From a virus (Duplodnaviria > Caudoviricetes): 62,268 bases of DNA. Below, one piece after another: positions 9,385 to 62,268 of this stretch (position 1 is the stretch's first letter; each line of letters starts with the position of its first letter). The translations under genes and the position numbers were made by a program. The DNA lies in IMG/VR virus record IMGVR_UViG_3300012927_000093, positions 1 to 62,268 of that record; one strand, given 5' to 3'. The notes under the pieces were generated by a model. It made no database searches. It saw only the letters and a program-made list of their open reading frames with translations, and was not told the DNA's origin.

Positions 9385-9387
9385 GGT

Positions 9388-13094: not shown

Positions 13095-13102
13095 CGTGGC
13101 TC

Positions 13103-30874: not shown

Positions 30875-30888
30875 GCCAGAGGCTCCCT

Positions 30889-32481
30889 TCACCACAAGTT
30901 GGGCACTTTTCGCTTCGCCAGCGACCCGTGTTCGATGGCCCAACCGCGGGCTTCGTAGGCCAAAAGCGCGGCCATGAAGGCCGAAATTGACTGTGCGTGA
31001 GACTTCTTGACGATGCGTTGGTAGTGCTCAGGCTGCCCAGGGACCCGTTCCTCAGCCGTGGAACGCCGCTTTCCGTTGGCCAAAGCGGCCCCAGCGGCGT
31101 GCATAGTGAGGATTTCGGTGCCGTCATGGGTCAGTTCGTCGCCCCGATGGGCGGTTTGGAACCGCTCCACCAGCTGATCCATGCGCAACTCGGAGTTGGT
31201 CCACAGTTCGTAGACCTTTTTCGGGTACTGGCCGTCCCAGCCGTTGACCTCGGTCTGCCAGCCGCTCGGCGTGCAGAAAAACGCCTCAACCTCGTACGCC
31301 TTGAACACGTCCCGGACGACTTGGTCGACCTCGTCGCGCGGAACGGTCCATTCGTCCTCGCCCGGGGCCCGTTCCCACGACCGGAGGTGGAAAATGTGCC
31401 CGTCGGAGAGCCTGGAGGCGCACAAACTGGTCGCATCCCGGTTCTGGGAGCCGTGGAAGCCCAGCGCGATCTTGTCTCGGGGCCGCAACCGCTCCCCGGG
31501 GCGGGCTTGGGCGTCCCACAGGATCATGTCGACGGCGTCGCGCGAGCCGACTGACACTTCGTTGAGGTAGTAGCGGCGAACTTCGCCCTCGGAGTGCGCC
31601 GGGTTCTGCACTTCCTTGGCGATACGGCTCAACCGGACCCAGCCGCCGCGTTCGGTAGCGCTGTCGCCGTATACGTAGGCCAGTTCAGCCATCAGTTCGG
31701 CGTCGTCCATCAGGTTCACGCGCCGACGAGGCGGCCGATAGTCCACATAGACATACCGATCGGCCGCTTCGTAGGTCCGCTGCGCCACCGAGCGCTCACT
31801 CGGGTCGTATGCGTTGCTGATCTCGATCCAGCGACCATCCATGCCGCCCAAGTTCCGCTTGAGCGTGCGTGCAAGCTTGAGTCCGCCACTGGTTTCGGTC
31901 ATCAGCTGGGTCTCGGTCATGCTCACGAACGTCACCCGGGCGCCCTGGCGAGCTCGTGAGGACGCCGTAACCGGCTCAATCCGCCCGTTGCCCGGCAGGT
32001 TGATGCGGGTCTCCCCTGGATCCAGGCCCGGAGTGCTCTGCAGTGGGCCCTCGCGCAGCATCGTGAGCAGCGGCCGGAACGTGTTGCCGGTCTGCTCCTC
32101 AGCGTTACCCGCGCACTGGATCCACGGGGTGGGCCACGGACGCCCTACCGGCTCGCCAGCGGCGTCCCAACCGGCGAAGCGCACCGGTCCGAGCGCCTCG
32201 GCGCAGATGATCGCCGCCGCGAACGGGTCCTTTCCCCATTTCTGCGGCCTGACCAGCAACGCACCGGAGAACCGGAACGCGTCCGACCCCTCGCCGTCGC
32301 GTGCATTCGGTACCAGCCGGTAGGCGTGCAGCAGGTGCATGTACTGCTCGTCGGTCAGGATGTACGGCTCGCCCATCCGCTCACCGTCGGGGATGATCAC
32401 GTTATCTTCGATAAAGGCTGCGACAGCGTGCCCCAAAGACGGCCAGCGGTCGCCGTCCGGGTCTGGCCCACGCCACGGCAT
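30889..32481 (-). CDS. terL: Terminase large subunit 1 (ATPase motifs present; nuclease acidic triad substituted)
   Basis: LTDEQ, RPQKWGKDP Walker A, EEQT.N, SNAYDP; nuclease motifs read GFHGS, FCTPS, SISA. Confidence 0.92.
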   Translation of the reverse strand: MPWRGPDPDGDRWPSLGHAVAAFIEDNVIIPDGERMGEPYILTDEQYMHLLHAYRLVPNARDGEGSDAFRFSGALLVRPQKWGKDPFAAAIICAEALGPVRFAGWDAAGEPVGRPWPTPWIQCAGNAEEQTGNTFRPLLTMLREGPLQSTPGLDPGETRINLPGNGRIEPVTASSRARQGARVTFVSMTETQLMTETSGGLKLARTLKRNLGGMDGRWIEISNAYDPSERSVAQRTYEAADRYVYVDYRPPRRRVNLMDDAELMAELAYVYGDSATERGGWVRLSRIAKEVQNPAHSEGEVRRYYLNEVSVGSRDAVDMILWDAQARPGERLRPRDKIALGFHGSQNRDATSLCASRLSDGHIFHLRSWERAPGEDEWTVPRDEVDQVVRDVFKAYEVEAFFCTPSGWQTEVNGWDGQYPKKVYELWTNSELRMDQLVERFQTAHRGDELTHDGTEILTMHAAGAALANGKRRSTAEERVPGQPEHYQRIVKKSHAQSISAFMAALLAYEARGWAIEHGSLAKRKVPNLW

Positions 32482-35049: not shown

Positions 35050-35051
35050 AA

Positions 35052-37902: not shown

Positions 37903-39134
37903 CCGTCTTCGTCGATGGCGGACTGGCCGGTGAGGACGTGCATCTCCTCGTCGGTCAGTCCGTCGTCACCGTGCCTGGCATTGGCCGCTACCGCATCAAC
38001 GACAACGGCACGTCCACGCTCATGACCGGCTCGAGAGGAAAACCGAAGGTGACCGATTTCAGCGAGTTTGCCGCCCGCATGGGCATCAAGGTGAAGGAGC
38101 CGAAGCCCGTTGTGGTGCGCGAAGCCGCATCGGCGGCTTCGAGGTCCAAGGCAGTGCGACCGACCGACATCATCACGATGATCGGTCAGGAGAAACTGCG
38201 CGTGCGGCTGACAGCCCATATGCGGGCCTCGAAGCTGCTCGGCAAGCCGGTGGGTCACATCCTGCTGCAAGGCCCTCCAGGTCTCGGCAAGACCAGCATT
38301 GCGATGCTCATTGCCGACATGGCGGGTGGCGATCTCGTCATCGCATCCGGTGATGCGCTCAAGACGCCCGAGACGCTGGTCAACGAGCTCGGAGAGCTCA
38401 AGGACGGCGACGTGTACTTCATCGAGGAGATGCACGGTCTGCCCGAGAAGCCCAAGCGCACGTTGTTGACCGCGATGGAGGACGGTCGCGTGGACATCGC
38501 GGTCGGCTCCGGTTCGCGCAGCGTCGTCGAGTCCAAGATGCTGAACGACTTCATCCTGGTCGGCGCCACCACCGAACCGGGCAAGCTCCCGCAGCCGCTA
38601 CTCGACCGATTCGCCATCCGTGGGTCGCTGGACTACTACGACGCTGACGAGATCGCCGAAATCATCACCCAAGCCGCTAAGCGCGACCGCATCAAGATCG
38701 AAGAGGAAGCGGCTACCGAACTAGCGCACCGCAGCCGGCGCACGCCCCGGATTGCGCTCAACCTGCTGGCAATGGCCCATGAGTACGCGGTGGCGTCCGC
38801 TGACTCGACCGATGTACCGGTCACCGTGCTGGACGTCAACCGGGCCCTGGAGATGGAGGACATCGACCACAACGGGCTGACCAAGGCAGACCGCTCGGTG
38901 CTGTGGGACCTGTGCAAGGTGCACAAGGGCGGTCCGGTGGGCCTGACCAACCTGGCCACCGGCGCGGACACCGACAACCGCACGCTTGAGTCCATCGAGT
39001 CGTACCTGATCCGGGCCAAGTACATCATCCGCACCGGTCAGGGCCGGGTGGCGACGAACTGGGGATTCGAGGCTGTCGGGCTCGAGCCGCCGGTGACCGC
39101 GCCGCACGCGGAGGACATGGAGATGGAGGACTAG
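37899..39134 (+). CDS. ruvB: RuvB-like Holliday junction branch-migration AAA+ ATPase with N-terminal extension
   Basis: VRP...IGQEK, HILL.GPPGLGKT, FIEEMH, AMED, LVGATT, PLLDRF, SRRTPRIA, GGPVGL, E.YLI...RT.QGR. Confidence 0.88.
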   Translation: MTVFVDGGLAGEDVHLLVGQSVVTVPGIGRYRINDNGTSTLMTGSRGKPKVTDFSEFAARMGIKVKEPKPVVVREAASAASRSKAVRPTDIITMIGQEKLRVRLTAHMRASKLLGKPVGHILLQGPPGLGKTSIAMLIADMAGGDLVIASGDALKTPETLVNELGELKDGDVYFIEEMHGLPEKPKRTLLTAMEDGRVDIAVGSGSRSVVESKMLNDFILVGATTEPGKLPQPLLDRFAIRGSLDYYDADEIAEIITQAAKRDRIKIEEEAATELAHRSRRTPRIALNLLAMAHEYAVASADSTDVPVTVLDVNRALEMEDIDHNGLTKADRSVLWDLCKVHKGGPVGLTNLATGADTDNRTLESIESYLIRAKYIIRTGQGRVATNWGFEAVGLEPPVTAPHAEDMEMED

Positions 39135-39481
39135 ACCCGGTCGTTCTTGTGCGAGTTGCAACCCCTGCACAGCACGGCGTAGTTGCTCGACTCGTGCATG
39201 AGGTCGGGGCGCACGGTGCGAGGAATGATGTGGTCAGCCGTGAGCTGCTGCGTTCCCGTCGCGTTCGGCACCACCGGATGCGGCGGGAAATCGTTCCACC
39301 CCGGACACACCCACCCGTAGCGAGCGACCCAGTCTGAGATCAGCTGGTGCGCGATGCGCTGGTGTTGCCGCCCGAGCCCCTTGGACGTGGCGCTGGCCCG
39401 GTAGCTGGCGGTTCCGCACTTGCCCCCGCACCGTGAGCCGCGGGTGGGTTGTCCGCAGGCAAGGCACGGTTTGAGCGCCAT
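39131..39481 (-). CDS. Packaging-type HNH endonuclease
   Basis: KPCLACG; LTADHIIP...N..VLCRGCNSHK; position upstream of the end region and terS. Confidence 0.85.
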   Translation of the reverse strand: MALKPCLACGQPTRGSRCGGKCGTASYRASATSKGLGRQHQRIAHQLISDWVARYGWVCPGWNDFPPHPVVPNATGTQQLTADHIIPRTVRPDLMHESSNYAVLCRGCNSHKNDRV

Positions 39482-51044: not shown

Positions 51045-51225
51045 GCCGCACCGTCCACGTCCGCGACCGGCAACATCCGCCGCACCTCCGTGGGCGGTAC
51101 CCGCCACTGCTCGCTCACCGACCCGTCCGCCCCGATGAGCAGCGCCGGCCCGGACGCCGAGAACTGGATCAGCACCTTGCCGGCGTCCGGCCCGTGCCGA
51201 AGAACCCAGGTGCGCGGGAACGTGC

Positions 51226-51426: not shown

Positions 51427-51764
51427 GCCGCCATCTCCACTTCCGCCGCCAGCAACTCCGCCAGCTCGCGCCCAGCTCCCGTGAGCTGCCAGAAGATCGC
51501 CGGCCGGCCGCCGCCCTGGTTGCCGATGCCCGGCACCTCTTCGACCACATCGACCAGACCGTAAAGACGCAGCTTCACGAGCCAGCGCGCCGTGTTGCCC
51601 TGATCCTGTTTGGTACGCTGCGCGATTTCGCCCCCGTAGCTGCTGCCGTCGCACCAGAGCGCGCCGAGCACGGCCGCGATGCCGGGCGATGGACGGCGTC
51701 GGTCACCGAACTGGCCATGGGTATTGCGGGCGGTGATCCAGAGGCGTTCGATGTCTGCGGTCAC
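51423..51764 (-). CDS. Winged-helix (PadR-like) protein
   Basis: SYGGEIAQRT...L..L...GLV...GRP..FWQLT.AG. Confidence 0.7.
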   Translation of the reverse strand: MTADIERLWITARNTHGQFGDRRRPSPGIAAVLGALWCDGSSYGGEIAQRTKQDQGNTARWLVKLRLYGLVDVVEEVPGIGNQGGGRPAIFWQLTGAGRELAELLAAEVEMAA

Positions 51765-54700
51765 GCCGCCACCTCGCCGTCACCGAGGAACCGCGCGTAG
51801 ACATAGCCGTGCTGGGCATAGGCCTCGAAGTCACCGGCGGGCCGGAACGCGTACAGCGCACCGCGGTTGATCTGGCTGACTGTGCACCGAGCTCCGTCGC
51901 GGGTCTTGCGCACGACCAGCAGGCGCCACTCCCCGCGGTTCGCGCGCAGCTGCTCGGCTTCGGCAGCCCAGGACACCCGGTTGACTCCGCCGACCAGTAA
52001 CCCGGAGGTGTTGGGCGCCATCACGCCACCGGCCTTAGCCCGGTAGCCCACTCGAACCGCCGAGCGCGGTCGACGTCGTCCAGCGCCAGGTAGTAGTTCG
52101 TTCCCCTGATCTCGACGATGACGCCGTCGGTGGTGTAGTTCCCGTAGTAGCCCTGGATTACGCCGATGCCGAACTTGGTGAACACGACGTCGTTCTTGCT
52201 GAAGTCACGCATGACTCTCTCCTTGCGCAAATGCGTGTTCGAGCCACGCGGCTACCAGGTCGGCGTTACGCAGCGACACGGGAAAGCCAGTGCCCTCGAA
52301 CTCGCCAAAGGTCAACTTGACGGGGAAGGTCTCGTGGCAGAGCGGGCAGGGAAGCGTCGTCTCAGCCACGGTGAAAGCCCCCGTGGCTGTGCGCGCCCTG
52401 GTGGTGCTCGCCTACGTGATCGGATCCATGTCGTCCGGCGGGATCAGGGTGGTGTTGTGCTCCCCCGTCGGAGTGATGTCCGTCCAGGTGACGGTTCCGT
52501 CCGGATGTTCCTCGATGATCACCGTGTAGCCAGTGGCCGTCTCGTACGCGTCGATGACCGCCGTCAGGAGACGGCGCAGTCCAGCGCTCATGGCGTTGCC
52601 CTTCGTCGGGTCGAATGTGGTGTTGCCTTGAACTTCCCCCTTCGAAATTCAAGGCAACGGGCCGTTGTGTTGAACTCGGTAGCGCAAAGTCCACGACCGC
52701 GATCACCGGCTTGACCGGCGCCTGAAACAGCGGCGGTGCACTGGCCACCGGCTGCGCCGTCGACAGCTCTGGCGGCACCACGACCGCGATCGGGCCGCCG
52801 TAGAAGCTGGCCAGCACCGCGAGCCCGGCGATCGGAGCCACGGCGCCGACGAACGCGCCGAGGCCACGGTGCTCGTGCGTGGGCGCGTAGACGAGACGGT
52901 GGCGGCTCATCGGCTGATCGCCCAGAGGAACGTGCAGAGCACCGCTGTGGCACAGAGGAAGAACGTGATCCAGACGGCAGCTTGGGGCCAGGTCATGCCG
53001 CACCGTCCAGCATGTGATCGAATTCCCCGGACTTGATCCCATCCACCAACACGCGGAAGGCGTGGTTGGTGTCGGAGATCCACTCATCGGGTCGCTCGGA
53101 GTTGCGGATCACGATGTTCCCGGTGAGGTCTCGGATCACCTGGAAACATCCGCCGTTCCCTGACCCCGAACCTTTCTGCCACTTGCTCATGCCCCGTTCC
53201 CCCTAGCCGTCTTGACCTGCACCGCGAGGTCGATCAGGAACCTCGTCGAGAAGTACGCGCCGGTGGCCAGCGCCATGCCGACCAAGATCCCGCCGGTCAT
53301 CGCCAGCGCCCTCCACCCGAGCGGGTTCACCGGTTGCCCCTGCGCTTGAGGTAGCGCCCGGTCAGCGTGGCTACCCCGAGCAACCCGACCGTCGCGCCGA
53401 GCAGGAACGAGCCGGTGGCCACCGCGACGGTCTTCATGACTCGTCGCCCATCAACAGCAGCTGCCACTCCATGTCCAGCAGGACTTGGTCGTCCTTCGGG
53501 GGCGGCATGACCTTGATCGGAGAGGAGAACAACCGCCCGATCTTGATGCCCTTGCCGATAGCGATGCCCAGGGCCGCGCCGCCGACCAACCAGAACACGA
53601 TTCCTAGCAACATCACTGACCCTGCTCCCTGTCTTGACGGTCGCGCCGCGCCTGCTCTAGCGCCTGCCAACCGCGGACAGCGGTGTCCACGCCCATCCAG
53701 ATCACGACGCCCACGCCGGTGAGCAGCAGCAGCACGATCAGCCACGCGGCCACGATCACGACGACGTTCATGTCGTCGCCCCCTTCAGGACGGACCGCGC
53801 CATGGCCACTGCCGCTTCGGTGTTCGCGGTGAGGCGGCCCTCGTAAAGCTCGCGTAGGGCTACCGCGATCTGCTCGCGCTGCGCGGCCGCGATCTCGGAG
53901 CAATCGAAAGCGAGGTACTGCGCCGCGGCGTACAGGTCGGTTTTGTAGTCGCTCACGCTGCTGCCCCCGTCTCGAGCGCAGCGGCTGCCTTCGCGGCCAG
54001 CCGCACGTCACCGAGCACCTTGAGCAGCGCTTCAGCGATCTCTTCCATCAGCCGGGCGTCGTCCTCGACGTCGAACTCGAGCGACCGGTCACGGCCGAAC
54101 TCGAGCGCCACGACCCGGCGGTTGTTGTGAAAGGTGATCTGGTCGGTGAGCTGAACCCATTGGCCGCCCCGGGTGTGCTTGCCGACCAGGGAGACGGGCA
54201 TCCATCCGCTGCTCACGCGGCACCGCCGATGACCATTGCCGGGTAACCCTCGGGCGGATCAGGCACAAACATGAACCAGCCGTCGGGCAGCTCGCGGAAC
54301 GTAACGTCGGAGGTGTGCCCCTCGGTTGCCTTCCGCAGCGCACGCGCCGCGTTCTTGCTCGGGGCCAAGTAGCCCGCTGGGGCGTTGCGGTAGTCCAGCC
54401 TGACCGAGTACTTCCACTTGCCGGTGTCGGTGAAGACCTCGGCTGGCACCCTGGCCAGCCAGGAGCCGAGGAGTTGCTGGACGTCGCGCCCGTTAGCTAG
54501 CTCAGTGGCGATGGCGTCGGCGAGCTCGGCCCGGGTGCTCACGCCGCACCGTCCAGCAGGAACGTCTCCGCGTCGGCCAGCACGCCGAACACGTGCTCGT
54601 CGGTGTCGTGGCCGGTGCAGTAGTTGGCGAACACGTCCCAGCACTCACACTCCAGGACAGCGCCACCTGGACGGACATGCAGCTGGCTGGCTACCTCGAT

Positions 54701-55414
54701 GAGACGTAGATCGATCATCTTGCGGACCACCTGCTGCGCGTTCACGCGGAGATCCGCATCAGGTGCCCGAAGCACTTCGCGCAGCACGGCCCGGCCACGT
54801 ACCCGGACGAGAGTGGGGCCGGCCGACGCTCCGGCGACTCGAAGTCGAGGCCGCAGGCCACCCAGTAGTGCGTGTTGTCGTTGGCCAGGAACGCCCAACG
54901 CAGGGCCCGGTGTACCTCTGACCAGCTCGGGTCCGTATCGCGGACGGCCATCTCGGAGGTGTGCACGTAGCCGAGCTCGGTGACCCGGCGAATCACGGCG
55001 GTCACTCCGACACCGCCGGCGCCAGGTCCACGCCTGTCTTGCAGAACGTGGCGGCCTCGAACCCGATGGGCGTCTCGGCGCGCACGTAGGTCACGTCGTG
55101 GTGCGTGATCTGCGTCCGCGGCACGGCCGTCTTGTCCGCTACGCCAGTGAGGCGCTCGCTCGGCGACTTCTGGGTGACCGTGTTGTCGGACGCCGGCTTG
55201 GGGCGCGGGCGGGGACTCGGGGGCGTCACGCGGCACCGAGCCGGTGCTTGCCGCCGTTACGCTGGGCCTTTGGGGTAACCAGGAATGTGTTGCTGGTACC
55301 TACGTGGCCGGCGAGACGCGACTGGTGAGCGCCTCGGTGACGCAGGGCCACCAGACGGTTGATGTTCGTCACCAGGTGTAGCGCGGTCAGCGGCTGAGCT
55401 ATTAGGGTATGCAT
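51761..55414 (-). other. Dense array of small early-gene ORFs (many under 100 aa, some single-TM)
   Basis: Consecutive overlapping stop/start codons on the minus strand; no recognisable domains apart from DUF397. Confidence 0.6.
52993..53190 (-). CDS. DUF397 protein
   Basis: WQKGSGSGNGGCFQV...IRNSERP...F..LVDGIKSGEFD. Confidence 0.8.
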   Translation of the reverse strand: MSKWQKGSGSGNGGCFQVIRDLTGNIVIRNSERPDEWISDTNHAFRVLVDGIKSGEFDHMLDGAA

Positions 55415-55456: not shown

Positions 55457-55500
55457 GAAAAGAGAGCCGTTTCTGCTGCCTAGGCGGGCGGCTCTTTTTC
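55457..55500. terminator. Intrinsic terminator after xis (A/T tracts on both sides)
   Basis: GAAAAGAGAGCCG...CGGCTCTTTTTC. Confidence 0.75.
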
Positions 55501-55511
55501 GTGCGTGTAGG

Positions 55512-55718
55512 TCAGGCGGTCATCCGCTCACCGCGCATCCATGCGTTCACCGCATCCCGGTGAACGCGCCAGATTCGGCCTTTGCCGCGTTGGTGGCCCA
55601 GAAGATCACCGCTCTGCAGCGCGAGGTAGATCTCGGTGCGCGAGACGCCGGTCATGGACTGGACTTCGGCGGGTGAGAACCACACGCGGCCGATCACTGA
55701 GCTGTCACTGTCTGTCAT
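55512..55718 (-). CDS. xis: Excisionase/Cro-like HTH protein
   Basis: FSPAEVQSMTGVSRTEIY.ALQSGDL...WRVHRDAVNAWM; first leftward gene. Confidence 0.8.
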   Translation of the reverse strand: MTDSDSSVIGRVWFSPAEVQSMTGVSRTEIYLALQSGDLLGHQRGKGRIWRVHRDAVNAWMRGERMTA

Positions 55719-55774
55719 CTTCACCTGCCTCGGAGGGGGGCATTTTGAGGATCCTGAGGGGTCCTTAGATGTGC

Positions 55775-55919
55775 CAAACAGTATCGAGCTGTGTCGAGGA
55801 GTGTCAAGCGTTGATGTCAAGTTGTGTCGGTTGGACGCTAGCACTCCTTGACAAAGATCCGGACCTACCTAGACATAGGCGCCCTTGCGTTTGACATCTC
55901 CGCAGGTCAGCCTTGGTCA
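55775..55919. promoter_or_regulatory. Divergent lysis/lysogeny switch region
   Basis: TTGACA/TAGACA hexamers at 55802 and 55815 (minus strand) and 55848, 55870, 55891 (plus strand), between xis and the repressor. Confidence 0.7.
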
Positions 55920-56381
55920 ATGGGCAGCGACGGGGACCTTCTGAGGGCTGCGCGCGAGCGCCTACGCCTGACTCAGGGGGAGCTGGCATCCAAGGTCGGA
56001 GTTAGCCGGGCAACGGTGGGTAGCTGGGAAAAGGGCACCCCACCCCGAAGTAGCCTTGGCCTGATACGCGAGGTGCTAGGGCTCGACGAGCACCTTCAGC
56101 CGGCCGGCTCGGGGGAGACCATGAACTTCGCCGCGATGACCAACGGCGAGCTCGTGGCGCGCATGAACACCCTGGTCGCGCAGCTGAACGTGATGTCGGT
56201 CGAGGTGGCACGCCGGTTGAAGGATGGCGACTTCGACACAGTCGACCAGGCCGCTGCCAGCAAGGCTGGTTACTCACAGCGACTAATCAACGGCCGGTTC
56301 ATCATGGACGTCGAAGACATCGAGCTGGACCCGCCGGACGACGAGGCGGGCAGCGCCGAAGGATCTTCCGTTAGTCAGTGA
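55920..56381 (+). CDS. XRE-family immunity repressor
   Basis: LRAARERLRLTQGELASKVGVSRATVGSWEKG. Confidence 0.85.
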   Translation: MGSDGDLLRAARERLRLTQGELASKVGVSRATVGSWEKGTPPRSSLGLIREVLGLDEHLQPAGSGETMNFAAMTNGELVARMNTLVAQLNVMSVEVARRLKDGDFDTVDQAAASKAGYSQRLINGRFIMDVEDIELDPPDDEAGSAEGSSVSQ

Positions 56382-56514
56382 TGGAACTAAAGTCGCCGTG
56401 CCGTGGGTACGTTGTGATACTAAAGTGACTACCCATTCGGCCTATAGCGGTACCTCCGGGCGAGTGAGAAGTTAACGCTTCTATTACATCGCGCAACTAT
56501 CCGGAGCGCCAACA

Positions 56515-56838
56515 TTGTCCACTGATGCGTACTACCCCACCCTCCCAGCGCAGTGGCTCACCGAAGCCGTCCTGCGGAATACTGGATACACAGTCGAGGT
56601 AAACCCCTTCCTCGAAGCCACCGCTGCAGTCGACCGCGAACGCGGTCTCATCGAAGTTCGCCCGGGCCTTACCTTCCCCCGCTTCCACCTGTCCCTGTCC
56701 CGGGCGGCCCTGTTCACAGTCTTCGATGAGACCGTGGTCCCCGAGTTCCGGCCGGCCCACGAGTTGCCTGAGGGGGTGACGCGCCTACACTCCACCCTCA
56801 CTGGCGGCATCGATATGCGCTACTCCCTGACCAGCTAA
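56515..56838 (+). CDS. ImmA/IrrE-like protein lacking HExxH
   Basis: Between repressor and integrase; GLIEVRPGLT..R..LSL where LAHELxH is expected. Confidence 0.45.
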   Translation: MSTDAYYPTLPAQWLTEAVLRNTGYTVEVNPFLEATAAVDRERGLIEVRPGLTFPRFHLSLSRAALFTVFDETVVPEFRPAHELPEGVTRLHSTLTGGIDMRYSLTS

Positions 56839-56852
56839 CCGCCGAGGTTGCG

Positions 56853-58100
56853 ATGGCGTGGACTGAAGAGCTAGCGCCCAACTCGAGCGGCACAGTCCGG
56901 TTCCGGGGCGCCTATCGCAACTCCGACCAAGAGGTGCGACGCAAGACCTTTGATCACAAGAACGCCGCCCTGAGATGGGCGTACGCCGAAGAACAGAAAG
57001 TCGCAGAAGGCTCTCGCCGAGACCCCGCGAGAGGTCGCCTCACCTGGAGCGCCTGGTGCGCACGGTGGTGGCCGACCCGGCGAATGGAGTCAGGCACCGC
57101 GAACTCGCAGATGAGCATGCGTGATCTCTATGTGCTGCCCCGCTGGGGCGACGTCCCGCTGAACAAGATCGAGCACGACGACTTGCAGGTCTGGGTCAAC
57201 GAGCTGTCCAAGAAGTTATCCGCCTCATCGACCCGGCTGTGTTACTACCAGCTGTCCGCGTCGATGAAAGCCGCCGTGCCGCGGTTGCTGCCCTATACGC
57301 CGTGCATCGGGATAAAGCTGCCCACGTTGCCTTCGGCGCCCGAGCGCTACCTTACTTTTGATGAAGTCGATGCGCTGTTCTATCACCTTGATGGCGTGTA
57401 CCGGCTGTTAGTCGAAACGCTGATCGAGACAGGCATGCGGATCGGCGAGGCGGTTGCGCTGCATCGGCACCGGATCAACTTCGAACAGAAGACGATTGAT
57501 GTCGTGGAACGCTGGGACGGCTACGCCGGCGTAGTTAAGGCATACCCGAAAGGCAAACGTCGGCGCACCGTGCCGCTCACACCGAAGCTAGCGGGCCTGC
57601 TGCACGCCTGGTACCAGATGCGCCCCTCTGACGCCCGACGCTGCACCGTCGTCCACGACCGCGGATCGGTATGCCGTTCAGCGTTGGTGCACCCGTCACC
57701 GGGCAACGGGAAAGTCATCGACCCCAAGGACTTCTCGCTGCGGCCATGGCGCAACGCCCTGGAGCGATCCGAGATCGGGCACGCCCGGATCCACGATCTC
57801 AGGCACACCTACGCGTCACGCATTGTAACTGCCGGCGTCAGCCTGTCGGTACTGCAGGCGCTGCTCGGCCACAGCTCGATCAAGACCACGGAACGGTACG
57901 CCCATCTATTGACCGACAGCCATGATGAAGTACGGGCCGCGCTGGCCCTGCGACCCTCAAAGGGAGCAGATGAGGGAGCAAACCAGTTGACACGCCTCGA
58001 TACAGCTCGGCACAAAAAGATGCAGCGGAACCTATCCCGACCAGGCAAAACGGCGAGGAACGGCACTACCGGGCACGCCTCGCCACAGGCTGAAATCTAA
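56853..58100 (+). CDS. int: Tyrosine integrase
   Basis: TGMRIGE, YPKG, HDLRHTYAS, LLGHSSIKTTERYAH. Confidence 0.96.
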   Translation: MAWTEELAPNSSGTVRFRGAYRNSDQEVRRKTFDHKNAALRWAYAEEQKVAEGSRRDPARGRLTWSAWCARWWPTRRMESGTANSQMSMRDLYVLPRWGDVPLNKIEHDDLQVWVNELSKKLSASSTRLCYYQLSASMKAAVPRLLPYTPCIGIKLPTLPSAPERYLTFDEVDALFYHLDGVYRLLVETLIETGMRIGEAVALHRHRINFEQKTIDVVERWDGYAGVVKAYPKGKRRRTVPLTPKLAGLLHAWYQMRPSDARRCTVVHDRGSVCRSALVHPSPGNGKVIDPKDFSLRPWRNALERSEIGHARIHDLRHTYASRIVTAGVSLSVLQALLGHSSIKTTERYAHLLTDSHDEVRAALALRPSKGADEGANQLTRLDTARHKKMQRNLSRPGKTARNGTTGHASPQAEI

Positions 58101-58235
58101 TTTCCTATTAAGGGTGGTTCGAGCGCATCCGGGCCTGCTCCCTGAGTCCGGATGCCGCGTGACCTGCTGGGTTGCGATCTCGGACCGCCTCGCGGGAGGC
58201 GCTCCCCCGGACCCCGGGAGCAACGAGGGAGCAGG
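57961..58235. other. Putative attP site
   Basis: Arm-type (A/C)GGGAGCA repeats at 57961, 57973 (direct), 58134 (inverted), 58215, 58226 (direct), flanking AT-rich TGAAATCTAATTTCCTATTAAG. Confidence 0.7.
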
Positions 58236-58239
58236 GGTC

Positions 58240-58419
58240 TCAGCCACGGTTGCGCTCTTCGACCTGACGACGCAGGTCGTCTAGGTCCCAGCGGTAGTGC
58301 CCGCCGGCCGTGACCATTGCCGGCTTGAACTTGTACGTGGTGACCCAGCGCCGCAGCGTCGCCCGACCGACACCGAGGGCGTCAGCCGCCTGCCCAGTCG
58401 TCAAGTAACGCTCCGTCAC
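58240..58419 (-). CDS. BldC/MerR-like small HTH regulator (not in ORF track)
   Basis: MTERYLTTGQAADALGVGRATLRRW...TAGGHYRWDLDDL, 59 aa. Confidence 0.8.
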   Translation of the reverse strand: MTERYLTTGQAADALGVGRATLRRWVTTYKFKPAMVTAGGHYRWDLDDLRRQVEERNRG

Positions 58420-58471
58420 ATCGTCAGCTTCCCACAGGCACCGGCTCGGTCAACATCCACGACACACCACC

Positions 58472-58534
58472 TTGGCGTGGAACCGGTCTCGTGCGTATAG
58501 TCTCACGTGAGCGGATTGAGCGCATTGAGCCGAT
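58472..58534 (+). promoter_or_regulatory. Promoter of the terminase-2 operon with three tandem 9-bp repeats
   Basis: TTGGCG-18-TATAGT, then TGAGCGGAT-TGAGCGCAT-TGAGCCGAT. Confidence 0.7.
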
Positions 58535-58556
58535 CGCTATCCCGGGGAGCAAACCA

Positions 58557-58832
58557 ATGACCACCGCCTATGACGAGGCACCGACCATGAACGGCAACCA
58601 GCCCACCGAGCCCACCGACCGCAAGCGCGCCCTTCGCCGCATGCGCGATCTGCTCGAGCACACCGAGCTCGGCCCGCAGCTGGCCGACGAGATCCGCGAG
58701 ACGCACCTCGACCTGATCGACCAGGAGAACTCGGCCACCGGCATCAACAAGCGCCACCTGAGCAATCGGGCGCACCTGGTCGGTCTGCTGCTCGCCGCGC
58801 TGGACGAGTTCCACGGCATCGAGGCCGAGTGA
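58557..58832 (+). CDS. Hypothetical helical protein
   Basis: RBS GGGGAG; first gene of the operon. Confidence 0.65.
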   Translation: MTTAYDEAPTMNGNQPTEPTDRKRALRRMRDLLEHTELGPQLADEIRETHLDLIDQENSATGINKRHLSNRAHLVGLLLAALDEFHGIEAE

Positions 58833-59065
58833 TGGCCTGGGGAAGCAAGCGCGAGAGCCACGCATCCTTCACCGCCCCGTCGGCCGAGTTCCAGGCCCAC
58901 AAGCAGCGCAAGGCCGAGGCTGAGCGCCAGGCCAAGGCTGACGCCCGGGCCGCCGACGCCAAGAAGGCCGCCGCCGCACAGGCCAAGGCCGACCGCGACA
59001 ACGAGCGCGCCATGGAACGGGCCGCCCAGCAGATCGCCGAGCGCGTCCTTCGGCACATGCAATGA
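58829..59065 (+). CDS. Ala/Lys-rich coiled-coil protein
   Basis: Coupled; KAEAERQAKADARAADAKKAAAAQAK. Confidence 0.65.
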   Translation: MMAWGSKRESHASFTAPSAEFQAHKQRKAEAERQAKADARAADAKKAAAAQAKADRDNERAMERAAQQIAERVLRHMQ

Positions 59066-59322
59066 ACCTGGTCAACCCGGAGCAGTTCCGCCACGGGCTC
59101 ATGTGGGTGGCCTTCTGGGGCATGGTCGCTTCGGCCGCAACCCTGGTGCTCGGTGTTGGGCTGGACGCTGGTTGGCACGTCTGGGTACCGGCAATCATCG
59201 CGTTCCCGCTTTGCTACCTGATCCGCGAGGCGTGTCACGACATGTGGATGGACGTCAAGGCCCCACGGATCCCTTCCACGTACACCACGCCGCGTGACTC
59301 CGACTCGGACTGGGAGAAGTAA
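59062..59322 (+). CDS. Two-TM membrane protein
   Basis: Two hydrophobic helices; ATGA overlap. Confidence 0.7.
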   Translation: MNLVNPEQFRHGLMWVAFWGMVASAATLVLGVGLDAGWHVWVPAIIAFPLCYLIREACHDMWMDVKAPRIPSTYTTPRDSDSDWEK

Positions 59323-59475
59323 ATGGGTTTCTTCACGAAGACTCGTCACGCGTCCCGCAACCCGGAGAAGGTCCAGACCATCCAGACGCACAAGATGGGC
59401 AACTTCGGTGGCAAGGGCAAGCTCGTCACCGGGTCGAAGCTCTCGGGTGGAAAGTCCAAGAAGAACCCGCGTTAA
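59323..59475 (+). CDS. Small highly basic protein (not in ORF track)
   Basis: MGFFTKTRH...GGKSKKNPR, 50 aa, RBS GGGAG. Confidence 0.55.
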   Translation: MGFFTKTRHASRNPEKVQTIQTHKMGNFGGKGKLVTGSKLSGGKSKKNPR

Positions 59476-59507
59476 CCTGCGGGAACGTCCGAAACGGAGG
59501 GCCGGAG

Positions 59508-59939
59508 ATGGGTGACCACTCCGGCCCTTACGCGTCAACGGACCCGAACAAATCCCCCGAGGTCGTGGATGCCGAGGCTGCGTTGGCATATGCGCGGCTG
59601 CTGCGTCGTGAGGCGCCGAACGATATTGCCCGCGATCTTGGGATTTCGAGGGCGACTTTCTATCGCAGAATCGAAATGTTGATGTTGCGACATGACCGCC
59701 CTTCTCGATCTTTGATGCAGGTGATCGCGCACGACGAGCTTGATCAACTGACGCGGATGACGATGCAGCGGCTGCAGGAAGAGTGCTCGAACCAGGACTT
59801 TGTGAAGCTGGTGGGCGAGCTGCGCCAGCAGAACACGGCGCGACTCAAGCTGTACGAAGACGCGCCGGCGAACACCGATGAGGGTGAGTCCACCGAAGAG
59901 GATTGGGACGACTGGGAGTCCGATGACCGCGCCAGTTAA
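59508..59939 (+). CDS. Terminase small subunit-like protein 2
   Basis: HTH NDIARDLGISRATFYRRI, DELDQL helix, acidic tail; overlaps TerL2. Confidence 0.65.
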   Translation: MGDHSGPYASTDPNKSPEVVDAEAALAYARLLRREAPNDIARDLGISRATFYRRIEMLMLRHDRPSRSLMQVIAHDELDQLTRMTMQRLQEECSNQDFVKLVGELRQQNTARLKLYEDAPANTDEGESTEEDWDDWESDDRAS

Positions 59940-61437
59940 GCGCCGGCTCGAAGGTCCGCCCGGCTTCCGTCCCGAGCTCTACACAGCGAAGCTGCGCCAC
60001 GGCGCGTTCCGCACGCACACCCAGGAGTGCATCAACAAGCGCCGGGATTGGTGCCGCACCTCCCCGATCCTGTTCGCGCTCTACTACCTGGCACCGCACG
60101 TGATGCTGCCCGGGATGCTGCACGCGTTGAGCGATCTGCACATAGCGCTGGCCATGTCGGCGAAGCGGTGGATGCGTACCGACGTCGGCCCAAAGGAGAT
60201 CCGCGACGCCTGGGTAGCGCCCCGGGACGCTGCCAAGACGACGTGGCTGTTCCTGATCTTGCCGCTGTGGAGCATGGCGTTCGGGCACCGCAAGTTCATC
60301 GTCGTCTACTCCGACACCGAGGATCAGGCGAAGCTGCACTTGGCCACGCTCAAGCTGCAGTTCGCGCAGAACGAGCGGCTGATGCGGGACTTTCCTGAGC
60401 TGTGCACGCCGATGAAGACTGGCGGCCGGGCGCTTAAGGACAACGACACGACGTACCTGGCAGCCAACGGCGCGATCATCATGGTGAAGGGGATGAACTC
60501 AGCGACGCTGGGCGTGAAGTGGGACAACCTGCGCCCGGACGCGCTGCTGTTCGATGAAGTCGAGCCCAAGAAGGGCCGCTACAACGTCGAGATGAAGCGC
60601 AAGCGGCTCGAGGATCTGATCGACGTGATCTTGCCGTGCAACTTCTCGGCGGTGGTCCAGATCGCGGGGACGACCGTGATGGCCGGCTCGATCATTCACA
60701 ATCTCGTCGAGGGCGACGCGTGGGTGGCCGAGGAGAACATCACGGTCCATCACTTCCGGGGCATCATCGAAGACCCTGAGACCGGAGACGAACGGTCGCT
60801 CTGGGAGCCGAAGTGGAGCCTGGAGTTCCAGCGCGAGGAGCGGCTGCGCAACCCGCGCGGCTACGCCAAGAACTTCGACAACGCCCCGGTCGACGAGAAC
60901 GGCACGTTCTGGGACGACGACGACATCACCTACGACACGCGCCTGCTCGAGCACATCACCGAGCGAATCCTGGTCGTGGACCCGGCATCGAAGTCCAAGA
61001 AGACGAACGACGAGACCGGCATCGCCATGGTGTCCTATGCCGGCAACGTGCGCCGTGTGATCGTCGAGCGGGTGATGGGTGTGCGGCTGAAGCCAGACAA
61101 GCTACGCGAGCTGGTGCACTCGATCGTCCGCAACAACGGCATCCGCCTCATCGTGGTGGACGTGACCAACGGCGGCGACCACGTGGAGAACACACTGTCG
61201 CCGCTGCCGCCTGGCGTGCGGGTGTTCCCGGTGTCGCTGCGCCGATCGAAGATCGATCGGATCACGGACTTGCATGACTGCTACCTGCGCAAGCCGCCGA
61301 TGGTGGTGCACGCCCGGCCGATTTCGACGCTTGAGGCGCAGATGAAGGCTTACCCCAAGACGCTCCACGATGACCAGATCGACGCTGTGGCGCTCGGCAA
61401 GGAGTACTTCCACGGCGAGCTGAAGGCCGCTAGCTGA
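59923..61437 (+). CDS. Terminase large subunit 2 (orphan, no adjacent portal)
   Basis: APRDAAKTT Walker A, RPDALLFDEVE Walker B, AGT coupling motif, VVDPA and HDDQIDA nuclease motifs; RBS GGGAG. Confidence 0.88.
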   Translation: MTAPVKRRLEGPPGFRPELYTAKLRHGAFRTHTQECINKRRDWCRTSPILFALYYLAPHVMLPGMLHALSDLHIALAMSAKRWMRTDVGPKEIRDAWVAPRDAAKTTWLFLILPLWSMAFGHRKFIVVYSDTEDQAKLHLATLKLQFAQNERLMRDFPELCTPMKTGGRALKDNDTTYLAANGAIIMVKGMNSATLGVKWDNLRPDALLFDEVEPKKGRYNVEMKRKRLEDLIDVILPCNFSAVVQIAGTTVMAGSIIHNLVEGDAWVAEENITVHHFRGIIEDPETGDERSLWEPKWSLEFQREERLRNPRGYAKNFDNAPVDENGTFWDDDDITYDTRLLEHITERILVVDPASKSKKTNDETGIAMVSYAGNVRRVIVERVMGVRLKPDKLRELVHSIVRNNGIRLIVVDVTNGGDHVENTLSPLPPGVRVFPVSLRRSKIDRITDLHDCYLRKPPMVVHARPISTLEAQMKAYPKTLHDDQIDAVALGKEYFHGELKAAS

Positions 61438-61484
61438 CCTGCACGGACTTGTGACCTTGTCCCGGATCAGGTACACTTGGAAAC

Positions 61485-61655
61485 ATGCAAGACCCCCTGA
61501 TGACCCTCCAGGAAGTCGCTGATTACCTCGGCATCAAGCCGGAGTCGGCTCGCAAGCTGCTGTACCGGCGCAAGCTGAAGCACGGTTACCTGCGATCTGA
61601 CGTCGTGGCCATCGAGCGCGCCAAGGGCCGACGTACCGATCTCGAAAAGGACTGA
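61485..61655 (+). CDS. Small excisionase-like HTH protein, leaderless (not in ORF track)
   Basis: TTGTGA-17-TACACT-7-ATG; LMTLQEVADYLGIKPESARK...GRRTDL. Confidence 0.75.
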   Translation: MQDPLMTLQEVADYLGIKPESARKLLYRRKLKHGYLRSDVVAIERAKGRRTDLEKD

Positions 61656-61657
61656 CC

Positions 61658-62268
61658 ATGGACAACCCCGAGGACGAGGCCCGTTACGCCCGAGAGCGAG
61701 CACGATTCGCCCAGAAGTTCTGCCACCACGGCAAGAGCCTGCTCGAACAGTGCACCGCCTGCGAGGACGAGGAGGACAACCGATGACCGCCTTCTGGATC
61801 GGCACCCTGACCGGCACGGCCGCAGGCGGGTTCATCGCCTGGCACCTGGCCATCATCTCCGTGCGAGCCGACCGGGCCCGCCGCGGCTGGAAGCGAAAGG
61901 TCTGACATGAAGATCCGCCCCGTAGAGCTGAAGACCCCGCCGGAGAAATGCGAACGCGGGTGCGGCCGTCTGGTGGCCGTGACCCGCCGGATCGACGACG
62001 GCGCCACCCGCCTGTCCACGGTCGACAAGGCCGGGAACGTGCAGCCGGGCCCTCACAATGCTATCCACCACTGAGGAGCGAGTCGTGATCGTGAGTGTGC
62101 GTGTCCTGACCACCTGCCCGCACGGCAACCCGGAAGACGTGGAGGCCACCGACGAGCATGGCCGAACCTCGGTGTCGCTGGCCGGGCACTGCCCCGACGA
62201 CTGCGAGAAGGACTAGCCATGGACGACGTCGACCGCTGTCCCGACTGCGACTACCCGCTGACGGGCAA
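61658..62268 (+). other. Run of five tiny ORFs (40-55 aa), mostly Cys/His-rich, one TM; the last runs off the window end
   Basis: Coupled starts at 61658, 61783, ~61907, ~62085 and 62219. Confidence 0.55.

What the first reader, a model, noticed from the sequence alone, without database searches (positions are those of the whole stretch)
58240..61437. A second, portal-less TerS/TerL pair in its own regulated operon: candidate two-terminase system
Seen: right of attP lies a six-gene operon (helical protein, coiled coil, 2-TM protein, basic peptide, HTH TerS-like protein, TerL) with its own promoter and a divergent BldC-like regulator. TerL2 is of a different family from TerL1 and has intact Walker A/B and nuclease motifs (VVDPA, HDDQID). 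No portal or capsid gene follows it. The attP architecture argues it is part of the same replicon. Inference, together with the nuclease-dead TerL1: TerS2/TerL2 could supply genome cutting for the TerL1 motor. Alternatively it could be a repurposed ATP-dependent nuclease for superinfection defence, for transduction of other DNA, or a membrane-linked DNA-transfer module.
Basis: partly seen in the sequence, partly recalled or inferred. Interest (0 to 1): 0.88.

Follow-up and report, generated by a model that had tools for sequence, protein, structure and literature searches.

The report
Conserved second terminase cassette in actinophages
This soil phage carries, besides the DNA-packaging enzyme next to its portal gene, a second complete and well-conserved packaging-enzyme pair with no portal of its own; the pair belongs to a widespread group of such 'second terminases' whose job is unknown and which does not look like a repair kit for the first enzyme.

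Summary
Window 58.5-61.7 kb encodes a small-gene/TerS/TerL operon with its own promoter. TerL2 (59878-61437) keeps every ATPase and nuclease catalytic residue and folds as a full large terminase. The join to the integrase is not an assembly artefact: two other contigs are colinear, and a syntenic 68.7-kb relative assembled as a circle carries both terminases.

The favoured interpretation, that TerL2 cuts DNA for a nuclease-dead TerL1, is not supported. I confirmed that TerL1 lacks three conserved Asp. However, a near-complete relative with the same Asp-less TerL1 has no TerL2, and six other phages with a TerL2-type gene have a primary TerL with all three Asp.

New here: all 15 portal-less TerL2-type genes with visible context fall on one side of a strongly supported split in the family tree. 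The 76 loci with a strong portal match downstream fall on the other side. Eleven records hold a different primary TerL as well. TerL2 is under strong purifying selection (dN/dS about 0.1). In the window's lineage it travels with cassette-specific genes: a 2-TM protein, a basic peptide, a helical protein and an HTH_17 protein.

Best reading: exchangeable accessory cargo, probably used in conflicts between mobile elements. The function is not shown.

The parts
58240..58419 (-). 59-aa HTH_17/MerR-type protein. Probably the excisionase of the tyrosine-integrase module; it flanks the cassette and is not a conserved part of it.
   Evidence: PF12728 E 3e-10; phrog_66 'excisionase and transcriptional regulator' E 2e-10. 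A homolog is present in L090, which has the same Tyr integrase, and absent from G001 and G045, which have a Ser integrase.
58472..58501 (+). Sigma-70-type promoter-like site, TTGGCG-18-TATAGT.
   Evidence: 1 site found in 57900-62268 against 0.4 expected. The same hexamers are kept in L090.
58509..58535 (+). Three head-to-tail 9-bp repeats (GAGCGGATT, GAGCGCATT, GAGCCGATC) in the 5' leader.
   Evidence: No exact copy occurs elsewhere in the window. L090 has a diverged repeat array at the same place.
58557..58832 (+). 91-aa helical protein ('p113' in my notes; the ORF is open from 58491). Cassette-specific.
   Evidence: Homologs occur in L090, G001 and G045. My HMM finds it in none of the 78 loci other than L069 among L011-L089, nor in the two satellite records L002 and L003. 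No Pfam or PADLOC match.
58829..59065 (+). 78-aa Ala/Lys-rich protein; not a conserved part of the cassette.
   Evidence: Found only in the window and L090.
59062..59322 (+). 86-aa protein with two hydrophobic segments and a conserved H-x-H-[DE]-x-[HW] tail. Cassette-specific.
   Evidence: Homologs occur upstream of TerS in G001, G003, G045 and L091. My HMM finds it in none of the 78 loci other than L069 among L011-L089, nor in L002 and L003.
59323..59475 (+). 50-aa basic peptide (MGFFTKT...GGKGKLVTGSKL...). Cassette-specific.
   Evidence: 96% identical in L090. Conserved in G001 and G045. GC3 0.86.
59508..59939 (+). TerS2: small-terminase-like protein with an N-terminal HTH, a helical middle and an acidic tail.
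   Evidence: Weak HTH Pfam matches. Its end overlaps the TerL2 start. hhalign probability is 95.7% to the TerS-like family of G003 and G045, which has homologs upstream of portal-linked TerLs. dN/dS 0.11.
59878..61437 (+). TerL2: accessory large terminase, 519 aa. The alternative start at ATG 59923 gives the 504-aa form found in the protein database.
   Evidence: phrog_38 E 3e-51. All catalytic residues are kept. AF2 pLDDT 86.6. Foldseek top matches are PhiV-1 TerL, T4 gp17, Sf6 gp2 and D6E TerL. dN/dS 0.08-0.12.
61485..61655 (+). 56-aa HTH_17 protein directly after TerL2. Cassette-specific.
   Evidence: PF12728 E 2e-6, 28.3 bits against a cut-off of 27. Homologs follow TerL2 in L090, G001 and G045.
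61658..61786 (+). 42-aa Cys-containing ORF.
   Evidence: 82% identical over 22 residues downstream of TerL2 in L091.
56853..58100 (+). Tyrosine integrase (context). It is the phage's only integrase.
   Evidence: PF00589 E 2e-27. There is one PF00589 match in the whole record.
30889..32481 (-). TerL1 (context): the primary, portal-linked terminase. It lacks three conserved Asp.
   Evidence: phrog_9 and phrog_19179. LGFHGS, CTPSGWQ and SISAF stand where 18 of 24 aligned relatives have D. The portal at 29454-30704 matches PF04860 at E 3e-79.
39131..39481 (-). HNH endonuclease (context): a candidate cutter for the primary packaging machine.
   Evidence: PF01844. Also present in G001 and in G002, which lacks TerL2.

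Best explanation
The region is a conserved accessory 'second terminase' cassette, not part of the phage's own head-filling machine.

Its core is a TerS-like DNA-binding subunit plus a catalytically complete TerL, with an ATP-driven translocase domain and an RNase H-type nuclease domain. In the window's lineage the core is joined by a 2-TM protein, a basic peptide, a helical protein and a small HTH_17 protein. The cassette has its own host-type promoter. It sits in the variable cargo island between the integrase/attP and the end of the late operon.

Shown:
- It is exchangeable cargo, present or absent among close relatives.
- It always accompanies a different primary terminase.
- It is under strong purifying selection.
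- Its presence is independent of whether the primary TerL has a nuclease.

Inferred mechanism (my most likely guess, about 0.4 on its own): TerS2 recognises a DNA site and TerL2 cuts or translocates that DNA without packaging it into a cognate capsid. This would serve conflicts with co-resident or incoming phages and satellites that use the sister terminase lineage, through exclusion or interference with their concatemers. The small membrane and basic proteins would act as localisers or self-immunity factors.
For: Same replicon, not a chimera:
- G001 is a 68,738-b circle-type assembly with a 127-b overlap, syntenic with the window along its whole length. It has TerL1 (74% identity), a portal, and TerL2 (90%).
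- L090 is colinear over 55874-61651 at 87% nt identity.
- A 22.9-kb contig of run X1 covers 55500-62268 identically, though X1 may be the source sample.

The enzyme is intact:
- R116, K120, D226, D/E227, D368, D378, D498, D499 and D502 are kept in 52 of 52 rows on the accessory side.
- They are also kept in all 8 later-found members.
- The predicted fold is that of a full TerL.

Selection (window against G001): dN/dS is 0.12 for TerL2 and 0.11 for TerS2, against 0.25 for TerL1 and 0.21 for the portal.

A distinct lineage:
- Among 79 IMG/VR relatives at 41% identity or less, 76 have a strong same-strand portal match downstream. The PHROG scan of 72 largest downstream ORFs phrog_104 portal, plus 1 phrog_776.
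- In trees of 157 and 172 proteins, all 15 members with no portal after them lie on one side of a split with support 99-100.
- The loci with a strong portal match after TerL, including the satellites Mulchroom and MiniFlayer, lie on the other side.

Always a second terminase: 11 records hold another TerL of a different family.
- phrog_9: window, G001, G003, G046/G047, G048, G049, G051, G052 and G054.
- phrog_2, beside a portal: G050 and G053.

Cargo behaviour:
- Only 2 of 44 records holding TerL1 relatives have the gene.
- G002 has unrelated genes at the syntenic place.
- The cassette is the most similar block between the window and G001, at 83% nt against 65-81% for the rest.
- In a soil run from another study, a contig shares 58556-61909 but differs immediately upstream of the first cassette gene.

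Cassette-specific partners: my HMMs for the TM protein, p113, p50 and the HTH_17 protein hit, among L011-L089, L002, L003, G046 and G002, only L069 (the G045 locus) at 1e-30 or better. No locus with a strong portal match is hit.
Against: - No function was tested. None of the cassette proteins matches a known defence family in PADLOC.
- dN/dS of 0.1 is lower than is usual for conflict genes.
- A complete, conserved packaging ATPase fits real packaging work at least as well as a pure nuclease role.
Portal-linked or sole-terminase members could be hidden there.
- In the more distant members (L199-L207) the neighbours differ. No integrase was seen among the few upstream ORFs I scanned, so the 'attP cargo island' setting is shown only for the window's wider lineage and the G046 provirus.
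- The trees are FastTree with midpoint rooting and some long branches.
- The absence case, G002, is a single linear contig.
Confidence: 0.45

Rival explanations
1. TerL1 has lost its nuclease, and TerS2/TerL2 makes the genome cuts for the TerL1 motor.
For: TerL1 of the window, G001 and G003 lacks all three conserved Asp, and all three carry an intact TerL2-type nuclease. An earlier follow-up in this scan (e1-6269067) linked the two.
Against: - G002 has the same H/S/S replacements in TerL1 (L096) but no TerL2 or TerS2 anywhere in its 69 kb. The syntenic island between the integrase and the late-operon end is fully assembled and holds other genes.
- Six of the nine assessed primary TerLs that co-occur with an accessory TerL keep all three Asp: G046, G048, G049, G051, G052 and G054.
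- The three positive cases belong to one lineage, so they count as one event.
- An HNH endonuclease is present in the window, G001 and G002.
- TerL2 belongs to a different terminase lineage, whose members are normally linked to a different portal type.
Confidence: 0.08
2. The pair is a working second packaging enzyme. It would package DNA into capsids, in one of two ways. It could put the phage's own genome into the procapsids of another phage or satellite that uses the sister terminase lineage (capsid piracy). Or it could put other DNA (host, plasmid or satellite) into this phage's heads (transduction).
For: - TerS and TerL are complete, with every ATPase and nuclease residue kept, under selection as strong as or stronger than on the primary terminase.
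- The TerS-like partner in G003 and G045 is homologous to the TerS found upstream of portal-linked relatives.
- Portal-linked relatives include Streptomyces phages of 68-69 kb, close to this phage's size.
Against: - None of the genomes examined holds a cognate portal.
- The accessory lineage is old and separate. It was not repeatedly recaptured from current competitors.
- The cassette is dispensable in a close relative (G002).
- No direct evidence exists of any docking partner.
Confidence: 0.25
3. The cassette is a remnant or passenger: the leftover of a satellite or second phage that recombined into this genome, with no present function, or a selfish hitch-hiking cassette.
For: - The closest named relatives include the Streptomyces satellites Mulchroom (38%) and MiniFlayer (33%).
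- The boundaries are mosaic.
- The distribution is patchy.
Against: - dN/dS is 0.08-0.12 and all catalytic residues are kept across members only 30-40% identical.
- The phage has a single integrase, and the region holds no capsid or replication genes.
- The satellites lie on the other side of the tree.
- Multi-gene synteny is kept between the window and G045 despite about 38% TerL identity.
Confidence: 0.07

Closest known systems
Portal-linked TerS/TerL of Streptomyces and Microbacterium phages (Rooney, Yara, Isperia) and of the Streptomyces satellites Mulchroom and MiniFlayer (GenBank OQ784832, OQ357865)
   Same: Same TerL family (phrog_38), 33-38% identity over about 90% of the length. Same catalytic motifs. 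A homologous TerS-like gene stands upstream.
   Different: In those genomes the terminase is the only one, and the portal, scaffold and capsid genes follow it directly. Here no such portal exists in the genome, a different terminase sits by the portal, and the gene lies on the other side of the deepest split in the family tree.
Satellite-encoded terminase subunits (PICI/SaPI TerS; capsid-forming PICIs with TerS, TerL and portal). Recalled knowledge, not from a call.
   Same: These are also extra terminase genes that act alongside a resident phage's own terminase and redirect what gets packaged.
   Different: Those lie on separate integrated islands that lack tails or most virion genes. This cassette lies inside a complete phage that has one integrase and a full virion module.
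HK97-type packaging: TerL gp2 with TerS gp1 and HNH endonuclease gp74. Recalled, and named by the earlier finding e1-6269067.
   Same: The window's primary module (phrog_9-type TerL, PF04860 portal, protease, phrog_10 capsid, and an HNH gene elsewhere) is of this kind.
   Different: This concerns TerL1, not the cassette. It offers a cutter (HNH) that makes TerL2 unnecessary for end formation. This is not tested.
TERi, a Listeria prophage system that blocks DNA packaging of invading phages (bioRxiv 10.1101/2025.02.27.640495; abstract and outline seen)
   Same: It is a prophage-borne system aimed at the packaging step of competitors, with self-immunity proteins. That logic resembles the conflict reading proposed here.
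   Different: TerI is a small protein that targets the invader's terminase. It is not itself a terminase, and there is no sequence relation.
Capsid-less terminase islands noted earlier in this scan (e1-1034087, e1-1133231, e1-4256622, e1-5244077)
   Same: They are intact TerS/TerL pairs kept by selection without an adjacent portal or capsid.
   Different: Those sit in cellular chromosomes as separate islands or gene-transfer-agent-like modules of other phyla. This one is a second terminase inside a phage genome. I did not test those notes.

Membership tests
Large terminase subunit (TerL) | N-terminal ASCE ATPase with Walker A Lys and Walker B Asp plus a catalytic acidic residue | tested here: met
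   K120, D226 and E227 are present and invariant (D/E at 227) in 52 of 52 accessory rows and 104-105 of 105 other rows. One deviation: the Walker A Gly119 is Ala in 27 of 52 accessory rows, including the window.
Large terminase subunit (TerL) | C-terminal RNase H-like nuclease with conserved acidic residues | tested here: met
   D368, D378, D498, D499 and D502 are kept in 52 of 52 rows. Some homologs carry the PF17289 Terminase_6C label.
Large terminase subunit (TerL) | Two-domain fold like solved TerLs | tested here: met
   AF2 mean pLDDT 86.6, pTM 0.74. Foldseek matches: 8dgc_E PhiV-1 TerL at E 1e-17, then T4 gp17, Sf6 gp2, D6E and HK97 TerL.
Large terminase subunit (TerL) | Encoded beside the portal and head genes it serves | tested here: not met
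   No portal of the linked type occurs anywhere in G001 or G003 or in the window. By contrast, 76 of 79 more distant relatives have a strong match downstream.
Large terminase subunit (TerL) | Packages DNA into procapsids | not testable with these tools
   Needs biochemistry or genetics.
Small terminase subunit (TerS), for 59508-59939 | Small protein with an N-terminal HTH and a helical oligomerisation region, encoded directly upstream of TerL | tested here: inconclusive
   HTH matches are weak, E about 3e-3. Position and overlap with TerL2 fit. hhalign probability is 95.7% over 76 columns to a TerS-like family that also stands upstream of portal-linked TerLs. Ring formation and DNA binding were not tested.
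Phage satellite (capsid-forming type, as Mulchroom or MiniFlayer) | Separate small element with its own capsid and portal genes and (for Mulchroom) its own integrase, lacking tail genes | tested here: not met
   The region has no capsid or portal gene. The record holds one integrase and a complete head-tail module. The arrangement is kept in a circle-type 68.7-kb genome.
Known anti-phage defence systems (PADLOC-DB 2.0) | Match to a defence-system protein model | tested here: not met
   No family matched TerL2, p113, p78, the TM protein or p50. TerS2 gave only weak HTH-level matches, and the flanking xis-like gene matched mad1.
   The primary TerL is degenerate in 3 of 9 assessed two-terminase records (one lineage) and intact in 6 of 9. 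G002 has a degenerate TerL1 without TerL2.

The most novel reading that the evidence does not exclude
The accessory side of the tree is an old, exapted lineage of terminases that no longer fill their own capsids. Temperate actinophages would carry them as a weapon or piracy tool against other phages and satellites. In this reading a TerS-guided, ATP-driven nuclease/translocase, together with a membrane protein, a basic peptide and an HTH protein, cuts or hijacks the concatemers or procapsids of competitors that use the sister terminase lineage. That would be a new class of inter-virus conflict system built from a packaging motor.
Probability: 0.35. Interest if true: 0.9.

Novelty: new variant of a known kind. 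Interest (0 to 1): 0.7.

Why it matters
A terminase is normally treated as a single-copy hallmark gene that marks the start of a phage's head module. It is used as such for phage detection, for classification and for predicting the packaging mode.

The results show that at least 11 phage records carry a second complete terminase that is under purifying selection. These genes come from one side of a strongly supported split in the family tree. The finding has three consequences.

- Hallmark-based annotation can mislabel the packaging strategy of such genomes.
- TerL/TerS can be kept for a role other than filling the capsid encoded next to it.
- There is a concrete entry point for experiments. 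G046 and G047 are IMG/VR provirus-class records, which I take from their identifier form, not from any call, to come from sequenced isolates.

If the role is inter-virus conflict or capsid piracy, that would be a new mechanism in phage-phage and phage-satellite competition.

The work also removes a tempting but wrong link between the nuclease-less TerL1 and TerL2.

Tried and rejected
Searches and predictions that gave nothing usable:
- Near-identical DNA in the phage collection: no match.
- Sequence search of the PDB with TerL2 and TerL1: nothing meaningful.
- Genome-contig scans for the TerL2 group: 0 relatives in two scans. I therefore found no prophage copy in species-representative genomes. 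These were pattern-limited scans, so this is not proof of absence.
- PADLOC: no defence family.
- ESM Atlas for the helical and 2-TM proteins: every hit scored below 0.9, so no lead.
- Complex prediction with TerL2, TerS2 and the helical protein as partner: verdict 'no answer', score 0.00. This counts neither for nor against binding.
- Sequencing runs: no RNA holder is listed, so nothing can be said on expression. All four runs laid were contigs, so termini could not be read.
- The 9-bp repeat motif elsewhere in the window: 4 matches at up to 1 mismatch against 1.98 expected, with 13 of 100 shuffles reaching 4. It is not enriched outside the promoter. The repeat scan of 58000-62268 found only short, chance-level pairs.
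- Portal adjacency of the phrog_9 TerL: seen in G054 only. There was no phrog_2662 match in G048, G049, G051 or G052. tblastn with two portals gave one weak hit. I therefore do not claim adjacency for those four records.

Literature: four full-text searches found no paper describing a second or accessory terminase lineage in phage genomes.
- I read one passage of PMC5000459; it was irrelevant.
- I saw the abstract and outline of the TERi preprint.
- Supplementary files were not opened.

Ideas considered and rejected:
- A chimeric assembly, rejected because of L090, G001 and the X1 contig.
- A separate integrated satellite, rejected because there is a single integrase and no capsid genes.
- A homing-type cassette, rejected because the flanks are not conserved.

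Rows dropped:
- One search used 44 of the 80 TerL1 loci, those on contigs of about 10.9 kb or more.
- Alignment A3 used 23 of the 80 loci plus the window.
- The trees left out database proteins of 600 aa or more (intein-bearing forms) and exact duplicates.
- L196, L197, L198 and L208 were left out of the second tree. The first three duplicate records already in it, and L208 is a fragment.

Full report
**What the window is.** The window is a whole IMG/VR virus record: 62,268 b, linear, CheckV 91%. It has no tRNA and a GC content of 0.61-0.69.

Most genes run on the minus strand. From right to left there are early genes, then two tail-like genes, then TerL1 (30889-32481; phrog_9 and phrog_19179). 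After TerL1 come an HK97-type portal (29454-30704; PF04860, E 3e-79), a protease, a capsid protein (phrog_10), a 1651-aa tape measure, and tail and lysis genes.

On the plus strand at the right end lie a repressor-like HTH protein, a 107-aa ORF and a tyrosine integrase (56853-58100). The flagged region follows them.

**The observation.** All six plus-strand ORFs are there and have coding-type third-position GC.

TerL2 matches phrog_38 'terminase large subunit' at E 3e-51, but no Pfam model. Its predicted structure (mean pLDDT 86.6) is a full two-domain large terminase. The best structural matches are PhiV-1 TerL, T4 gp17, Sf6 gp2 and D6E TerL.

Walker A Lys and Walker B Asp-Glu are present. 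The Walker A Gly is Ala.

A promoter-like site TTGGCG-18-TATAGT (58472-58501) is followed by three 9-bp direct repeats. The first gene most likely starts at ATG 58557.

The divergent 59-aa gene is HTH_17/MerR-like and matches the PHROG 'excisionase and transcriptional regulator'.

**Same replicon, not a chimera.** Three lines of evidence agree.
- A viral contig, G001 (68,738 b, CheckV 100%), has identical 127-b ends, which indicates a circle-type assembly. It is syntenic with the window along its whole length. It carries a TerL1 homolog (74%) with a portal, and a TerL2 homolog (90%) with TerS2.
- A metagenome contig, L090, is colinear with the window from 55874 to 61651 at 87% nt identity. This stretch spans the integrase, the xis-like gene and the whole operon.
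- A 22.9-kb contig of run X1 covers 55500-62268 identically and continues 7.2 kb past the window end. X1 may be the source sample, so it is not independent.

Synteny with G001 and G003 shows that the window's right end continues, after a few kb that the record lacks, into its left end.

**Is a portal normally next to such a TerL?** Yes.
- In the satellites Mulchroom and MiniFlayer, the best named relatives at 38% and 33%, the order is TerS, TerL, portal, scaffold, capsid.
- Of 79 IMG/VR relatives at 41% identity or less, a local portal HMM found a strong same-strand match downstream in 76, mostly within 800 b.
  - The HMM was built from the downstream ORFs themselves. It was checked independently by PHROGs, which label 62 of 72 of these ORFs phrog_104 and 1 phrog_776, both portal families.
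  - Of the remaining three loci, one match was weak (L085), one locus had too little sequence (L064) and one had none within 10 kb (L069).
- No such portal exists anywhere in G001, G003 or the window.

**A distinct lineage of second terminases.** I built a tree of 157 family members. Six members with visible context had no portal following the gene: the window, L090, G001, L091, G003 and L069 (= G045). All six, plus L085 (= G046), lie on one side of the basal split, which holds 52 rows with support 99. All loci with a strong portal match, and both satellites, lie on the other side, which holds 105 rows.

A further scan seeded with the divergent members found eight more large contigs (L199-L205 and L207). 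They share the same layout: small genes, a TerS-sized gene of about 160 aa, TerL, one to three small genes, then genes on the opposite strand, with no portal. In the 172-row tree they join the same side, which then holds 60 rows with support 100. All 15 of its context-known members lack a portal.

Three caveats apply. The trees are FastTree with midpoint rooting. Some branches are long.

**Always accompanied by another terminase.** Eleven records with an accessory TerL also hold a TerL of a different family.
- phrog_9 type: the window, G001, G003, G046 (and its twin G047), G048, G049, G051, G052 and G054.
- phrog_2 type: G050 and G053. In G050 the next gene is a 941-aa phrog_2662 portal fusion. 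In G053 a 926-aa ORF that I did not annotate follows at the same relative position.

The records without a second TerL are only 53% and 57% complete (G045, G055) or are short contigs (L090, L091).

No phage isolate among 50,697 records has a closer relative than 41% to three different accessory queries. The listed hits sit at the left-end terminase position.

**Intact and selected.** Every catalytic residue is kept in 52 of 52 rows on the accessory side and in the eight later members. About half of the accessory rows have Ala in place of the Walker A Gly, against 3 of 105 on the other side.

| Gene | Window against G001 (dN/dS) | Window against L090 (dN/dS) |
|---|---|---|
| TerL2 | 0.12 | 0.08 |
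| TerS2 | 0.11 | 0.12 |
| TerL1 | 0.25 | not computed |
| Portal | 0.21 | not computed |

Three homologs carry intein-type domains.

**The cassette.** Across the window, L090, G001 and G045 the same set of genes recurs, even though the G045 TerL is only about 38% identical to the window's. The set comprises the helical protein, the basic peptide, the 2-TM protein, a TerS-like gene, TerL and an HTH_17 protein directly after TerL (PF12728, 28.3 bits). G003 and L091 keep the 2-TM protein, TerS and TerL.

HMMs of the four small families were searched against L011-L089, the two satellite records L002 and L003, G046 and G002. At 1e-30 or better they hit only L069, which is the G045 locus, and no locus with a strong portal match.

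The TerS-like family of G003 and G045 does have homologs upstream of portal-linked TerLs, with 17 hits. The window's TerS2 aligns to that family with hhalign probability 95.7%.

The 78-aa Ala/Lys-rich gene is not conserved beyond L090. The xis-like gene follows the tyrosine integrase and not the cassette. G001 and G045 have a serine integrase there instead. Each phage has a single integrase.

I confirmed that TerL1 of the window, G001 (L100), G002 (L096), G003 (L098), L101 and L105 reads LGFHGS, (C/A)(T/S)PxGWQ and SISAF. The other 18 of 24 aligned relatives read LGFDGS, (A/G)DPxxWQ and (I/V)D at those places. I infer that these three Asp are the catalytic ones from their pattern. I did not map them onto a solved structure.

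The association with TerL2 fails both ways.
- **G002.** It is 69,151 b, CheckV 100%, linear, and its TerL1 is 76% identical. It has no TerL2 or TerS2 by profile search or by tblastn. Its island between the integrase (3628-4530) and the late-operon end (about 15.4 kb) is fully assembled. It holds a 710-aa unknown protein, a YdjM-type membrane protein and a 406-aa HTH_31 protein instead.
- **Other two-terminase phages.** The primary TerLs of G046, G048, G049, G051, G052 and G054 keep all three Asp.

The primary TerL is therefore degenerate in 3 of 9 assessed two-terminase records, and those three form one lineage. It is intact in 6 of 9. The phrog_2 TerLs of G050 and G053 were not assessed.

Only 2 of 44 records holding TerL1 relatives have a TerL2-type gene, and only 1 of the 11 that are at least 90% complete. 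An HNH endonuclease is present in the window, G001 and G002, and the window has Ku. These offer another route to making and rejoining ends.

**What it most likely is.** It is an exchangeable accessory cassette, for four reasons.
- It is present or absent among close relatives.
- It is the best-conserved block between the window and G001, at 83% nt against 65-81% elsewhere.
- In another study's soil run, a contig shares 58556-61909 but differs immediately upstream of the first cassette gene. In that contig the HTH_17 gene is replaced by 380 other letters.
- In the G046/G047 provirus records the pair sits within about 1 kb of the left end of the record.

This is how cargo or 'moron' genes of temperate phages behave. 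Together with the host-type promoter and the cassette-specific small proteins, I read it as a terminase put to another use, most likely in conflicts between mobile elements. In that reading TerS2 selects DNA, and TerL2 cuts or translocates it without a cognate capsid.

That step is inference. PADLOC finds no known defence family. No expression data exist. The structure-based binding test gave no answer. A real packaging role, such as capsid piracy or transduction, remains a serious rival.

**Novelty.** Four full-text searches found no description of such a lineage. Earlier notes of this scan describe capsid-less terminase islands in cellular genomes of other phyla, and for this same genome the Asp-less TerL1. 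The earlier follow-up's statement that the whole Asp-less group carries a second packaging enzyme does not hold for G002.

Noticed in passing
window 30889-32481 and relatives L095-L174: The whole TerL1 family, including the members with all three Asp, has unusual ATPase motifs. Walker A reads QK(W/S/A)GKD, with Asp where Ser/Thr is usual. The Walker B region reads T(E)(S/T), with no Asp before the Glu.
   Followed up: partly
G046 29789-32356 (L187:9789-12356, -); database proteins P0005, P0015, P0037: The primary TerL of provirus G046 is 855 aa. Read from its sequence, it carries an intein-like insert right after the Walker A Lys. Three TerL2-type homologs of 848-893 aa carry homing-endonuclease (PF05204), LAGLIDADG (PF14528) or intein-splicing (PF14890) Pfam labels.
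   Followed up: partly
G002 4931-14970 (L177): At the place where the window has the terminase cassette, the relative G002 carries other cargo. This comprises a 710-aa protein with no family match except a faint HerA-like hit (E 4e-3), a YdjM-type membrane protein and a 406-aa HTH_31 protein.
   Followed up: partly
G001 about 63250-63400 and G045 about 23110-23290 (reverse strand): The 5' leader of the cassette in G001 and G045 is about 120 nt long and nearly identical between them. It has two short hairpin-forming stretches after a TATAGT/TATGCT box. It is unrelated to the window's leader with its 9-bp repeats.
   Followed up: no
window 59323-59475: The 50-aa basic peptide is very well conserved. 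It is 96% identical in L090, and the GGKGKLVTGS(K/R)L core is kept in G001 and G045. Its gene order relative to the 2-TM gene is swapped between the window and G001.
   Followed up: partly
L004 13951-17676 (-), that is G001 about 51063-54788 (+): A 1241-aa protein with an alginate-lyase domain (PF08787, E 3e-20) ends the late operon of G001, convergent with the cassette island. It may be a tail depolymerase.
   Followed up: no
window 33115-35771 (-): Two tail-type genes lie upstream of TerL1 on the same strand, before two small unassigned ORFs. One is a 644-aa protein matching phrog_25867 and phrog_10356, the other a 146-aa minor tail protein (phrog_226). This is an odd position for tail genes.
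   Followed up: no
window right end, 62268: A 22.9-kb contig of run X1 runs 7.2 kb beyond the window's last base. The identical TerL2 protein is recorded on a contig of 69,488 b. The record is therefore a truncated version of a longer assembly.
   Followed up: partly
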